Of a stretch of 64,000 nucleotides of DNA, positions 395-63,925 are shown in pieces. The notes below the pieces were generated by a model that saw nothing but the letters and a program-made list of their open reading frames with translations, made no database searches and was not told the origin of the DNA. The translations under genes were made by a program, and so were the position numbers. Origin of the DNA: Octopus vulgaris (taxonomy: Eukaryota); assembly GCA_951406725.2 (NCBI GenBank), contig OX597836.1:2852001-2916000 (forward strand). Reading direction: 5' to 3'. Every line of letters begins with the position of its first letter. Position 1 is the stretch's first letter.

Positions 395-593
395 AAAGTA
401 ATTGACCACTAGTTCCAAAAGTTGTTTTTTTCTTTCTCTCTCTGTCTCTGTTTATTTTCTCTTGTTCCCTCCTGTTGAAGAGCGTAGGCTGGAAACGTAA
501 ACGACTTTCTCACTTTCCCAAGCGTCAAACTTACACACCTGCTTGTTGTTCATACATCTGTCTTCGTCTTTTATTTTTCTGTAAATTTCAACT
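395..593 (+). mobile_element. Short hammerhead-bearing repeat, family H2 (putative PLE pLTR remnant)
   Basis: Shares GAAGAGCGTAGGCTnGAAACGTA...tgtcttcgtctttt...tcaac with copies at 28.5, 41.7, 46.7, 46.9 and 63.8 kb. The 3' end abuts (CA)n/(TA)n. Confidence 0.7.
468..503 (+). ncRNA. Minimal hammerhead-like motif, H2 variant (degenerate)
   Basis: cctc CTGTTGA A GAGC gtag GCTG GAAAC GTA aacg. Stem I and the closing pair of stem II are mutated. Confidence 0.5.
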
Positions 594-3500
594 ATACACA
601 CACACACACACACATACACACACACACACACACACACACATATATATATATATATACACACATTTATACATACACTCCTGACTGCATGCGCACGCAGACA
701 TATTCAAGCACATTAAGACATACACAGTGTATTTAAAGTTTGAGAAATCCTTGGTTCTACGTCACCACGTTAAGACTACACAAACAATAAGCACAACTTT
801 GTAAGAGCTACGTGTGAAAAATGTTCCGTGGTTGCATATATATCATTAATAATCTGGTGAATCGTAATCTACGGCGTGTTACGTTTCCTCTTCTATCATT
901 GAGATAAAATATACGAAATGAAAAAAAAAAGAAGAGAAAGAAAACAGTAAGAAGATTAGTAAGAATTTATTGAAAGCTTTAGGGATTAACTCTGTAGGTT
1001 GGCTAGATTGAATTCCTCGGCTTTAGATTGTCGTCGTGTTTATTTATATGTGTGTTCACATGTGCCTGTTAGTGTGTCTGCTATATCTATGTATATATAT
1101 ATATATACATATATATATATATATATAAGTATACATACATAGGTATAGATGTATATACTTATGAACATGTATATTGATAAATGTTCGTGTTTGTGCGTGA
1201 GTAAATGAAGATTCATATATGCATATATGCATTTATGCATATAATTCCCTATATATATGTATATATAAATGTATATATATGTATATATGTATATATATAC
1301 ACATATATACATACATTCATATATATATATATATATATATATATATATATATATATATATATGCACGTATGTTTGGTTAGATAAATATCGATATATATTA
1401 AGTATACATGCATATATGTATTGATTTGTTTGCTTATAATATATAAATGAATATGGGTATATAGAATTGTATATACATGGTATCTATCGACATATGCATG
1501 GATATACATATACACACACATATAAACGGTCATAGATTTTTAGGAACATAAACTCACATGCTGAAGGTGCTGCTGTATTAATTATAATTTCTCATAATTA
1601 ATTACATTCTATTTTTTTGTGTCTCCTTCAAAAGAGTTAGATCAAAGTCAAACTAAGTAAGAAAATGGACTCAGTTCCTGCTCATAGTCTTAGAATATTG
1701 CAACGGCAGAGTAAGATTGCTTGCATGGAATAATTTCATTTCTTGCCGAATGAAAATCTTTCATTGTCACGAAGATTTTATAGATTGCCATGTGTATACA
1801 ATAGACAATGTTCCAGATGTCTGATATACACTGAAGAGATTGGTTTTTACATCAACCCAGCTAAGAATGGTTTACGAGGGAAGTGAATTACTTTCCAGAG
1901 TTCTTAGTATGGAATTAACGAGTTATTATCTACCGACCATTATCATAGGCACTCGAATCCGTTCACAATATTTGATTCTAATCAACGCCGATCTTACTTT
2001 GTTCAGCATGGGCGATGACTATTCCTGGATTATAGTTTTCTTTCTCTTGAATAACTAAATCCCAAATAAAGAAGAGGTACGACACATGAAGATTAATGTG
2101 TCCACAAAAAAAAAGTAGCATTGTTTCCTCTCACCCGTATATAGATTTGGAGAAAAATATTTTTTTCAGTATACTTGTACCTTGAACAGTATAGACTTCT
2201 CTGATGTATTTCATCAGTGGATTCTTGGCTATTATTTCTAGCTCAGTGGGAGACTGTGACTGGTGACAAAGAAGGTTACGAATAAGTGATATTCCTCTTT
2301 TTTTTTTACTCTGAATTTTCTCCCAGCTTCTTTGCTTCCGCATTCTCCCGAATTACGTCATTAAAATCTTCAGAGAAGGTGATTGAACTTACTGGATAAT
2401 CAATTAATTAGTGCAAAGGGAGCCTGTAGAAACATTATGAATCCCACGTTCGTTAGATCAATCATTTCATTTTTATTCCATTTCATCAATAATTACACAC
2501 TTGCTTGACAATTGTCAGAATTTATCTTTAACCGTTTAAGGATGCGTTTCACCAAAATCTCAGATGCTGTGTATTAATAGTGTCAATTGTCATGGAGTTA
2601 AAGCTGCATACGATTCTGTTTTTATGGAATTAAATATATTGCAATCAAAGAATACAAATATAAAATGAAAAAATATGCATAAAATTAAAACAAATTAAAT
2701 ATATTTGAATGAATTTAAAATTTGAAATGAAGTCTCTCAAACCTCATTATTTAACGCTCTCTTCTTCAAATAGTTTAAAATAACTGTTCTCATTCAATAT
2801 CAATCTATACCTGCGTATCATCTGGCCAGATGCAGATATGCAGAAACAGTTCGAGTGAAGTTACAAAGTTCTTGGATGACTCATGTTTCGTGAAGCTCAG
2901 CTTTAACTCTGTATTGATTTCTAATCGGAAGCTATAAATTGATTTAGTTTTCGGATAGGGTTAGAAGAAGATATTTAGTACATCATACATACATATACAA
3001 TATATACATATATATTGTCACAAAAACATAATTCACATTCGGATGAACGTATATCTATCTATCTATCTATCTATCTATCTATCTATCTATCTATCTATCT
3101 ATCTATCTATCTATCTATCTATCTATCTATCTATATATATATATATATATGTTTTATATATATATGTATGTATCTATCTATCTAATTATATATATAACTG
3201 TCTGTCTATCTTTCTATGTGTCTGTCTATCTTACTATCTAGCTATCTGTCTATCTATCTATTTATCTATCTATCTATCTATTTATCTATCTATCTATCTA
3301 TCAGCTATACTAAACTGGCTTTTATGCCCATTTCCTTCATCCACCCATCTATTATTATTATTATTATCATCATCATCATCATCATCATCATCATCATCAT
3401 CATATATACAGATAGATAGAGAGATACCTATGCAGTAATATCTATATTATTTATACCGCGCTATGTATATATATATATGTGTTTGTGTGTGTGTATGTGA

Positions 3501-4099
3501 GTGTGTGAGAGAGTGTGTGTGTGCGTGTGCGTGGGTGTACACAAATAAATTCATTTCATAAATATAAACATAAACGTAACGTACATACAACGATTTGTAT
3601 ACATACTTTTTTAGAGGATCATGTGTAGTAATTTATTGAATCGCGCTTATGTACTTGTTTGTATATCTAACCAGGTTGATGTGAGTCTCCACATTGTATG
3701 ATATAATTTATACACGATATCATAATATCACTTCCGGCTTTCTTTACAGCATGAAACAGGAAGTCTCTAGCATACAGTTCCAACACAATGTTAATTACGT
3801 GAGTATTTCTATGAAATCCATTCACACATGTTATTCAATAGTGTTCGAATAATTTGCGCTGTGACTTTCCCATTGAATTTAACTGCGGCTACATAGAATA
3901 TTGTGTGAGGCAAAGAGAGAGAGAGAGAGGAAAAGGAAGGAAGAAAGAAAGAAAGAGAGACAGAGAAAGAGGCGGTGTGATAAACAGTCAGACAGACAGA
4001 CAGACAGACAGTGAGAGTTTGTTCTTGAAGATGCCAGTTGCATGGAAGTAAAGTTTGTAGATTCAAGGTGATTTAGTACCACGTTATAGAATGTATGTG

Positions 4100-4265
4100 C
4101 GGCGTTGGTGTGGCTGTGTGGTCAGAAGCTTGCTTCCCCACGACATGGTTACGGGTTCAGTCCCACTGCGTGGCATTTGGGGCAAGTTTCATCTACTATA
4201 GCTTCGGGTCGACCAAAGACTTTTGAGTGGATGTGGAAAACAAAAGAGAAAGAACCCCGTCGCAT
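4100..4265 (+). mobile_element. tRNA-derived CORE-type SINE (family B, octopus OR-like), 5' half
   Basis: A box tggctgtgtgg, B box ggttcagtccc and CORE-like ttggggcaagt. Matches the full copies at 8.7 and 29.9 kb. Confidence 0.8.
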
Positions 4266-4627
4266 ATGTGTGAGTGTGTGTGTGTGTGGGGGGTTAAATA
4301 CATATTTTCAGATAGAGAGAGTGACATTGAGATATTGATAAATATATCGATACATAGCTAGACGTAGACTGACATACAGATTGAAAGATAGCGAGAGAGA
4401 AAGCGGGGTGGAAAGTAAAAGAGAGAGAGAGAGATGGGGGGGAAGAGAGAGAGAGGTGGCAGAAAGAGAGAAAAAGAAAGATTAAAATGTAAATATGAAC
4501 AGAAGCATAGTTAGAGAAACGTCAGGTAGTTAGATCTCTAGCTTGATAGACAGACAACTCATATTGAGGCGGTAAACATATTGTTGGAACCCTGAATGAA
4601 GATGTATCACCTATCTCACCCCGCCCC

Positions 4628-62402: not shown

Positions 62403-62442
62403 CCACTGATGAGGTCACAGGAGTGTTACGAAAGAACTCTGG
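62403..62442 (+). ncRNA. Minimal hammerhead motif, family H6
   Basis: CCA CTGATGA GgtCAC agga GTGttaC GAAAG aa CTC TGG: perfect core, stem I CCA/TGG, CUC site. Confidence 0.72.
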
Positions 62443-63584
62443 CGGAAATAAGATTAAGATTAATGTAAAAACTAAATAACGCTGAAGCAAAGTAACACCA
62501 AATATATAGTGCGTGTGTTTTTATTGGCTAAACTGGCAAAATGACCATTCCTAAATACAAGAATAACTGGTTTATTGCTTGCATCTAAGCTTTTTTAAAA
62601 TTCCATTTAACCAAATGGTTCCACTTCATCCCATTTCGTTGTTTCATTGCACCTGCTTAGACAAAGACAATGAATGTGTGGAGAGCGTCCGTTTGTCATA
62701 CACTGGCAAGCATATTGTTATTTCAAGCGATCTATCACACAGCAGAAAGAAACACTTTTTCCATAATGTTAAGTATTTGTAGCGATGGCAGCGAAAGTCG
62801 GACATTTCAAATTGTTCTTTTTATGACTGTTAGCTAACCATCCGGTCATATTAGTTTATCTGTTTCTTTCTTCGTTAATTTCTTTGTCTTTGGTGTATTT
62901 CTTTTTTCTTCTTTTTGTATTCGTTCTCTTTTCCTCATTTTTTAAACATTTCAGTTTATCATAGTCACCAGGGAAACCAAAACAAAAAAAAAAATGATAA
63001 AAGAAAAACAAAAAAAAAACACTAATAACTCATGAAATTCATTAACTTCTTTATATATTATACAGAAATGTTACTAATTTTTCTAAGAGGGAAAAATTAC
63101 GCACAAATACAATAAACGTTAATCAATAACTAAAACGGAACAAAAATATCGGTATTAATTATAATTTTTCTCTCTTCCAATTTTCTAAATACTTTTTTTT
63201 TTCAGCATTGCGTTAATTCTTCGAAAAAATCTTATTTATTTATTCATCCATTCAGTTATTTATTCATTTATTTAGTAAGTTAGTTACGTGACTGGTGGAT
63301 TGGAAGCAGAAACTCAAAAATATCTGAAACTAGTTTCAATATAGTTTTGAAGACTCTCTAACAATGAATAAGGATGTTTCCTTTGCACACCGTCTGTCTT
63401 TATTCATTAAGAAGATACAGCGTCATGGCTGTAAATATACAGAAATACGATATAAATAAACATACACACACACACACAAACATATGCGTGTATATGTGAT
63501 CAGTGATTCTCACTTCGTTAGTGTATAGTCGAGATATTAGATGTTTGAGTCTCTCTCTCTCTATATATATATATATATATCACC

Positions 63585-63702
63585 GTCATCAACGTGACCG
63601 ACCAGGCTATCAGATGTTGCTACACATCGCTGGTCACAATGCACTTCGCATTGTTTTAGCCTTCAAATGACGCCACCCCTCTGGCTAAGTGAGCAGGCCA
63701 AT
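63585..63702 (+). mobile_element. Short GC-balanced island in (TA)n, probable retroelement 3' tail
   Basis: Non-repetitive 120-bp insert between (TA)n tracts. The assignment is from recall of octopus repeats only. Confidence 0.3.
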
Positions 63703-63726
63703 ATATATTTATATATACATATATAT

Positions 63727-63925
63727 AGGGAGAGTTTACGAAAAAAACAAAAGACAAAGACAGGTGGTGTACAAAACAAACAGATGTATTAGTATAATGC
63801 TCAGGAATAGAAAAAGTATTTTACGTTTCGAGCCTACGCTCTTCTACAGAAAGGGACACAGAGAAAAAGAAGGAGAGAAACAAGGAGAGAAAAAAGAGAG
63901 AAAGAAGGAGAGAAAAATATGAGTC
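63727..63925 (-). mobile_element. H2 repeat
   Basis: Near-identical to the reverse complement of 28500-28668; ends ctccc-(TA)n. Confidence 0.8.
63818..63853 (-). ncRNA. Minimal hammerhead motif, H2 (A6U)
   Basis: CTTT CTGTAGA A GAGC gtag GCTC GAAAC GTA AAAT. Confidence 0.7.

What the first reader, a model, noticed from the sequence alone, without database searches (positions are those of the whole stretch)
468..63853. H2: a non-canonical hammerhead, CUG(U/C)NGA+R, with a zero-loop stem III (obligate dimer?)
Copies at 468, 28538, 41678, 46665, 46895 and 63818 and the related 19764 give the consensus CUUU CUGYNGA R GAGC guag GCUC GAAAC GUW AAAG. The normally invariant A6 is U or C in all six H2 copies, and an extra purine sits between A9 and stem II. 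Stem III is AC/GU with no loop, so it cannot fold in a monomer, but ACGU is self-complementary. Stem I covaries (CUUU/AAAG vs GUUU/AAAC at 19764, which keeps A6). Dimeric cleavage by PLE hammerheads is established; whether this combination of variants has been described I cannot tell.
Basis: partly seen in the sequence, partly recalled or inferred. Interest (0 to 1): 0.8.

Follow-up and report, generated by a model that had tools for sequence, protein, structure and literature searches.

The report
Retrotransposon ribozyme with fixed core mutation
About 15,000 exact copies of a hammerhead (self-cutting RNA) motif at the ends of a Penelope-type jumping gene carry U where hammerheads normally keep an A, even in young elements with long reading frames, so it is likely a slowed, protein-assisted cutter and a natural test of why these jumping genes keep such ribozymes.

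Summary
The motif is real. It is the end-repeat (pLTR) minimal hammerhead of a Neptune-type Penelope-like retrotransposon; the six window copies are decayed, 5'-truncated ends. The third is not: A6U is fixed (14,944 exact U6 motifs against 543 non-U6), also in young RT/GIY-YIG elements with a motif on each side. C6 is decay. Across 8 U6 subfamilies, 34 of 36 motif columns never changed (18.9 changes expected). Only N7 and H17 vary, the two positions free in an active hammerhead. A sister lineage mostly carries U4C. U6 is predicted to pair with A15.1 and fold the monomer into a rod that hides the palindrome. Copies end about 90-104 nt past the cut site, and 5' ends do not pile up there, so reverse transcription likely reads uncut or re-joined RNA. 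Best reading (0.55): a slowed, protein-assisted dimer ribozyme. Rival (0.3): a catalytically dead RNA signal. No cleavage data exist, and Lunse 2017 could not be read. This scan noted the same variant before on another piece of this genome.

The parts
468..503 (+). H2 hammerhead motif (stem I to stem I), U6, subfamily S1; in a truncated element end at about 448-588; stems damaged
28539..28574 (+). H2 motif, U6, subfamily S5; C3>A and palindrome damaged; element end about 28507-28666, then (TA)n
41678..41713 (+). H2 motif, U6; G5>A; old copy, element end about 41662-41761
46665..46700 (+). H2 motif, subfamily S3, the one C6 copy (decay from U6), stems intact, predicted cut after 46696; element end 46635-46788
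46895..46930 (-). H2 motif, U6, diverged; element end 46808-46938, tail to tail with the 46665 copy across one (TA)n tract
63818..63853 (-). H2 motif, U6, subfamily S5; only copy with exact core, stem II and palindrome; element end 63727-63884
19764..19798 (-). Sister-lineage motif (GUUU/AAAC stem I, A6); this copy has a private A9>C; element end 19659-19830

Best explanation
H2 is the end-repeat hammerhead motif of a Neptune-type Penelope-like retrotransposon whose lineage fixed A6U, and it likely still works as a slowed, protein-assisted ribozyme that would cut after GUA/GUU only when two copies pair. Shown: in long elements the same U6 motif sits 4.4-4.6 kb apart on both sides of an RT + GIY-YIG frame; most copies end 90-104 nt past the predicted cut, at a UA-rich stretch that matches the (TA)n target; the motif is conserved except at N7 and H17. 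Inferred: the two motifs of one tandem transcript swap substrate strands through ACGU; U6 weakens the U-turn and is predicted to pair with A15.1, closing the monomer into a rod; the element's own protein would open it. Slow cutting would let reverse transcription start downstream of the ribozyme and read through it, with cutting (and possibly circularisation) as a late or minor step.
For: Context: 6 of 16 fetched long-frame loci show pLTR-ORF-pLTR with U6 at both ends; 5 of these 6 have pLTRs 92-99.7% alike; L122 has a 1098-aa open frame with RVT_1; 12 of 15 other long copies are 96.6-99.1% identical to L125 over the full 1.8 kb of RT-EN. Selection pattern: 0 changes in 34 motif columns over 8 U6 subfamilies against 18.9 expected at the 3'-flank rate, but 5 changes at N7 and 2 at H17; G17, which blocks cutting under the NUH rule, is in 132 copies only. 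Precedent: natural A6C hammerheads are slow but active (PMC3088659, PMC7151607); an anole PLE hammerhead cuts only with the element's protein, and uncut RNA is the main template (PMC11167929); min-HHRs cut weakly as dimers, not as monomers (PMC4209133). Fold: P(G5-C15.2) is higher in U6 than in matched natural A6 back-mutants in 5 of 5 pairs (0.98/0.08, 0.85/0.22, 0.19/0.00, 0.44/0.02, 0.96/0.07).
Against: No cleavage was measured. Pairwise mutagenesis found low activity for all CUGA-turn mutants except the C3-G8 swap, with no rescue (PMC9901934 passages). 5' ends do not pile up at the cut site (about 2 per position there and downstream). The nearest-neighbour energy of the double hammerhead (-9.9) is far worse than two rods (-16.8), though such models omit tertiary contacts and also disfavour the A6 relatives. 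Stem II never covaries, which fits sequence-specific binding equally well. Sister lineages show other forbidden states (G17 in 2 of 2 T3 copies, a U-U mismatch in stem I of T5). Zero change at position 6 alone is not significant (0.56 expected).
Confidence: 0.55

Rival explanations
1. The motif no longer cuts. It is kept as a structured RNA signal (a rod of stem I, U4-U6/ACG helix, tandem G-A pairs and stem II) that the element's protein binds to position the start of reverse transcription about 100 nt downstream.
For: Rod is the predicted monomer fold (-8.4 against -5.9 open). Stems I and II and loop II are fixed in sequence with no covariation in the U6 lineage. HHR mutants did not affect insertion in vitro. 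Naiad PLEs spread without hammerheads. No excess of 5' ends at the cut site. About 70 of 100 listed sister motifs carry U4C.
Against: The only varying positions are N7 and H17, and H17 stays U or A, which is the catalytic pattern. The rod is weak in G7 and C7 subfamilies (P 0.19 and 0.44). In the anole element the protein-binding region could be separated from the 5' core of the ribozyme.
Confidence: 0.3
2. U6 is compensated (by the dimer context, a tertiary contact of the fixed GUAG loop with stem I, or Mn2+), so the variant cuts about as well as its A6 relatives and makes a circular RNA template.
For: 5' pLTR overlaps of 500-1435 nt mean cDNAs longer than one unit, as a circle would give. 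GUAG loop and U6 were fixed together and never changed. A6C is rescued by Mn2+.
Against: No known rescue of CUGA-turn mutants by a second mutation. Longer-than-unit cDNA also comes from uncut tandem transcripts. L122 has pLTRs of two subfamilies (82% alike), so tandems also arise otherwise.
Confidence: 0.12
3. The motif is a neutral relic: a dead ribozyme carried along by amplification of one mutated master copy.
For: Window copies are decayed; elements need not have an active hammerhead.
Against: Eight successive subfamilies, from about 12% to 2-3% divergence, kept 34 of 36 columns while 43 of 99 3'-flank columns changed.
Confidence: 0.03

Closest known systems
[quoted passage not shown] S3
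   Same: pLTR location, 4-bp stem I, extra base after A9, G10.1-C11.1, loopless ACGU palindrome, nearly the same stem II (GAGC/GCUC against GGGC/GCUC)
   Different: All 56 representatives there have A6 (their descriptor required it); reported core variants are U3-A8, not position 6. Here U6 is fixed.
Bcep176 A6C natural hammerhead (PMC3088659, PMC7151607)
   Same: Natural loss of A6 with the rest of the core intact
   Different: Single phage sequence, C not U, tested as a monomer; here a lineage of at least 15,000 copies in a loopless, dimer-type motif
PAc (Poseidon, Anolis) protein-assisted hammerhead with internal RT start (PMC11167929)
   Same: PLE hammerhead upstream of an internal RT start; copies extend past the cut site
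   Different: Different clade; no position-6 change described; there priming is at a non-homologous site, here at a UA-rich stretch matching the (TA)n target (inferred from ends)
Short-stem-III dimer hammerheads, Lunse, Weinberg and Breaker 2017
   Same: By title and by reviews: PLE-linked, palindromic short stem III, dimer cleavage
   Different: Not held; I cannot exclude that it lists position-6 variants

Membership tests
PLE min-HHR (Cervera 2014) | Lies in the pLTRs flanking an RT-EN frame | tested here: met
PLE min-HHR (Cervera 2014) | Stem I of 3-5 bp and stem II closed by G10.1-C11.1 | tested here: met
   stem I 98.4% and stem II 100% of cells paired in 16 representatives; one covarying pair
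PLE min-HHR (Cervera 2014) | Extra nucleotide between 9 and 10.1; palindromic 15.2-16.2 without loop | tested here: met
   definition
PLE min-HHR (Cervera 2014) | Core CUGANGA with A6 | tested here: not met
   U6 in 14,944 of 15,487 exact motifs
PLE min-HHR (Cervera 2014) | GAAA and NUH cut site | tested here: met
   H17 is A 31, U 9, G 1 of 41; G17 132 genome-wide
PLE min-HHR (Cervera 2014) | Self-cleavage as a dimer | not testable with these tools
   no assay; only contig-level runs were offered
Rfam hammerhead families | Covariance-model match | tested here: not met
   none among 65 matches at E<=10 in 6 loci, two of them A6; none in the 150 of 371 rows shown for the window
Neptune-type EN+ PLE | RT with DKG motif, C-terminal GIY-YIG with two cysteines, CX2-5CxxC linker | tested here: met
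   motifs read in L122/L123/L125 translations; RVT_1; definitions
Neptune-type EN+ PLE | Partial tandem pLTRs, 5' truncation, microsatellite target | tested here: met
Neptune-type EN+ PLE | RT phylogeny separating Neptune from Nematis | not tested
   nearest proteins are 56-59% identical and unnamed by clade; the Neptune call rests on the linker and on likeness to the Acropora motif
Non-autonomous retrozyme | Short tandem hammerhead repeats without an ORF | tested here: not met
   copies are dispersed truncated ends of an ORF-bearing element; one local array of short copies at L047

The most novel reading that the evidence does not exclude
A6U is an adaptive self-lock. By pairing with A15.1 it shuts the ribozyme and hides the dimerisation palindrome until the element's protein opens it, protecting the RNA that reverse transcriptase must read through. 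The lineages with weakened U-turns (A6U, and U4C in the sister branch) displaced the canonical ones, so that about 85% of intact motifs of this clade now carry a U-turn mutation: selection for slower ribozymes in a retrotransposon.
Probability: 0.2. Interest if true: 0.75.

Novelty: new variant of a known kind. Interest (0 to 1): 0.55.

Why it matters
Why PLEs keep hammerheads is open, and A6 is treated as invariant in search descriptors, so this family is invisible to them and to Rfam. A young, high-copy lineage that fixed A6U yet keeps the catalytic conservation pattern gives a direct test with matched natural A6, U6 and C4 forms. Either outcome is useful: a new tolerated core (or a protein- or Mn2+-gated one), or evidence that PLE hammerheads are kept as RNA signals rather than cutters.

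Tried and rejected
1) Pile-up of 5' truncations at the cut site: among the first 100 of 460 matches (by eye; first 30 checked with flanks) about 26 are true truncations, 6 at the three positions of the site and about 20 over the next ten; no excess. The rest are small indels. 2) A basal A6 master inside the H2 lineage: A6 copies with the GUAG loop are basal in 5 of 20, U6 copies in 9 of 41; they are scattered back-mutations. 3) U4C strengthening the same helix as A6U: P about 0.01; rejected. 4) A second independent U6 family: the L130 copy is a chimera with another repeat; the commonest hit has no stem I. 5) U6 fixed in other animals: 22 metagenome stretches; 18 carry the Acropora-type stem II and loop with U6, and 4 of the 22 loci also hold an A6 copy, so probably sporadic mutants; no denominator. 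6) RNA evidence: no RNA holder listed; contigs cannot show ends. Absence of a variant row at position 6 is no proof, because the variable N7 has no row either. 7) Pfam found nothing on the isolated GIY-YIG piece. 8) A search meant to reach the ORF of the U4C lineage was mis-aimed, so that lineage has no ORF or RT tree here. 10) Lunse 2017 and one structural review were not held.
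Full report
Observation. The window is 33% GC and rich in microsatellites; it lies in a 2.8-Gb animal genome. That it looks like an octopus genome is my recalled impression and was not tested. All seven motifs are present: 468, 28539, 41678 and 46665 on +, and 46895, 63818 and 19764 on -. Position 6 is U in 5 of 6 H2 copies and C in one. The copies are decayed: 1 of 6 matches core, stem II and palindrome exactly, two lack CUG, two lack ACGU, and 19764 has a private A9>C. 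Four window sites match at up to 3 mismatches against none in 100 shuffles.

What carries the motif. The best genomic matches share a fixed 3' end against (TA)n and vary at the 5' end. Walking upstream gave a GIY-YIG C-terminus. A protein search listed 150 of 15,535 candidates, some with open frames up to 1098 aa. I fetched 16 long-frame loci. Six show pLTR-ORF-pLTR with a U6 motif at both ends, 4380-4567 nt apart. The frame has RVT_1, the DKG motif, a CX4CxxC linker and a two-cysteine GIY-YIG, the layout of Neptune and Nematis PLEs. Twelve of 15 other long copies are 96.6-99.1% identical to L125 over the full 1.8 kb, two are 92-94%, and one aligns in part at 98.8%. The nearest database proteins are 56-59% identical; named hits further down are from corals and snails. 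In 88 of 123 scored copies the element ends 90-104 nt past the predicted cut. In tandem elements the 5' repeat runs on from a short TA stretch into the 5' unique sequence, while the 3' repeat runs from the same stretch into genomic (TA)n. I infer that reverse transcription starts there, downstream of the ribozyme.

How fixed is A6U. Exact counts: 14,944 motifs with U6 and 543 with another base (first 100 listed: 71 C, 20 A, 9 G). The 20 listed A6 copies fall across subfamilies like 41 consecutive U6 copies do, so they are back-mutations. A profile search gave 9 hits in 200 kb of evenly spaced stretches and 9 in the window, so the clade may have on the order of 100,000 copies; that is a rough extrapolation over all three lineages. 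Contigs of two other organism labels hold an identical stretch across the U6 motif (records 3 and 28). Sister lineages: a pattern with A6 gave 13,698 matches, 70 of the first 100 with U4C and 30 with the canonical core. Taking those shares, about 85% of intact motifs of this clade carry a U-turn change.

Selection. From 204 copies I assigned 116 by eye to 13 subfamilies (two have only 2-3 copies). Across all 13, 24 of 36 motif columns are invariant, against 1 of 36 in the 5' flank and 14 of 99 in the 3' flank. Across the 8 U6 subfamilies it is 34 of 36, against 3 of 36 and 56 of 99. Parsimony gives 0 changes in those 34 columns against 18.9 expected, 5 at N7 and 2 at H17. The root within the U6 ladder is poorly supported (45); divergence puts S1-S2 oldest (11-13%) and S7-S8 youngest (2-3%). 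G17 occurs in 132 copies. In 16 hand-picked representatives stem I covaries at one pair and stem II never varies; shuffles ignore relatedness, so this is weak support. That N7 is free in active hammerheads is in the consensus quoted; the NUH rule is.

Folding. The young monomer is predicted to form a rod in which U4-G5-U6-U7 pair with A14-A15.1-C-G (-8.4 against -5.9 kcal/mol for the open form; double hammerhead -9.9 against -16.8 for two rods). In five natural U6/A6 pairs the G5-C15.2 pair is always more likely with U6, strongly in three and weakly in two. The C4 lineage does not use this register. These models omit tertiary structure, and the A6 relatives also fail to fold as hammerheads in them.

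Test for cutting in vivo. If RT fell off a ribozyme-made 5' end, short copies would start at the cut. They do not: about 2 truncations per position at the site and over the next ten positions. This fits uncut or re-joined templates and says nothing direct about catalysis. No usable RNA reads were offered.

Mechanism. Shown: context, fixation, conservation pattern, 3' end position. Inferred: strand-swapped dimer between the two motifs of a tandem transcript, slow cutting, protein help, and a benefit of slowness because a quick cut would sever the RT start from the ORF. I give this 0.55, a non-cutting RNA signal 0.3, a fully compensated variant 0.12 and neutral relic 0.03.

Literature. PMC4209133 (main text parts 1-2 of 4, supplement parts 1-2 of 3) defines the min-HHR with the extra base and palindromic, often loopless helix III; all 56 representatives have A6. 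PMC3088659 (passages) and PMC7151607 (parts 1-2 of 4) describe natural A6C, slow in Mg2+ and rescued by Mn2+; the former also cites U4C as weak in vitro but sufficient in a viroid. PMC9901934 (passages) finds no rescue of CUGA-turn mutants. PMC11167929 (parts 1-2 of 4) shows a protein-assisted PLE hammerhead that is dispensable for insertion in vitro. Passages only: bioRxiv 2021.04.23.441226, PMC6765202, bioRxiv 2026.07.22.740005 (14), PMC6466107, PMC13282606 (no mention of hammerheads), PMC6962438, PMC12192606. Searches showed no natural A6U hammerhead in their listings. Lunse 2017 was not held and is the most likely place for prior mention; its supplements and those of the preprints were not seen.

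Verdict. New variant of a known kind; interest 0.55. Two of the three claimed oddities are known; the fixed A6U under continued selection in a young element is the finding.

Noticed in passing
L209:1498-1536, L200:1494-1532 and genome-wide: A sister lineage mostly carries U4C (CCGACGA; 70 of the first 100 of 13,698 matches); one subfamily also has a U-U mismatch in stem I. No ORF-bearing copy was reached.
   Followed up: partly
window 59240-59290 (+), 59115-59164 (-), 6265-6314 (-): A second PLE-type hammerhead family with canonical core, extra base after A9 and a longer palindromic helix III; the 59.1-59.3 kb pair forms an inverted repeat.
   Followed up: no
L047/L048 (G000:C20, about 14.30 Mb): Four or five short H2 copies in tandem about 290 nt apart, separated by microsatellite, plus one inverted copy; a retrozyme-like array or local duplication.
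   Followed up: no
L122:2277 and 6657: One long element has pLTRs from two subfamilies (82% alike), suggesting template switching or recombination.
   Followed up: partly
L230: Chimeric motif: upstream flank, stem I 5' strand and core from the A6 lineage, loop II and downstream flank from the U6 lineage.
   Followed up: partly
L215:1494-1532, L103:1075-1113: A small A6 subfamily has G17 in 2 of 2 copies, which should block cutting.
   Followed up: no
L110:1600-2120: An A6-lineage copy has a short RT-like fragment only about 400-480 nt upstream of its hammerhead; possibly an internally deleted, non-autonomous form.
   Followed up: no
window 4674-4724 (+) and 5415-5523 (-): An inverted pair of degenerate copies related to this motif, with damaged core and G17.
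   Followed up: no
L191, L192, L196-L198: A different repeat family ends in a hammerhead-like string with U6 but no stem I; it may be a relic or chance.
   Followed up: partly
L293-L314: Metagenome records hold the Acropora-type Neptune hammerhead, several next to GIY-YIG remnants 40-52% like this element, often in inverted pairs.
   Followed up: partly
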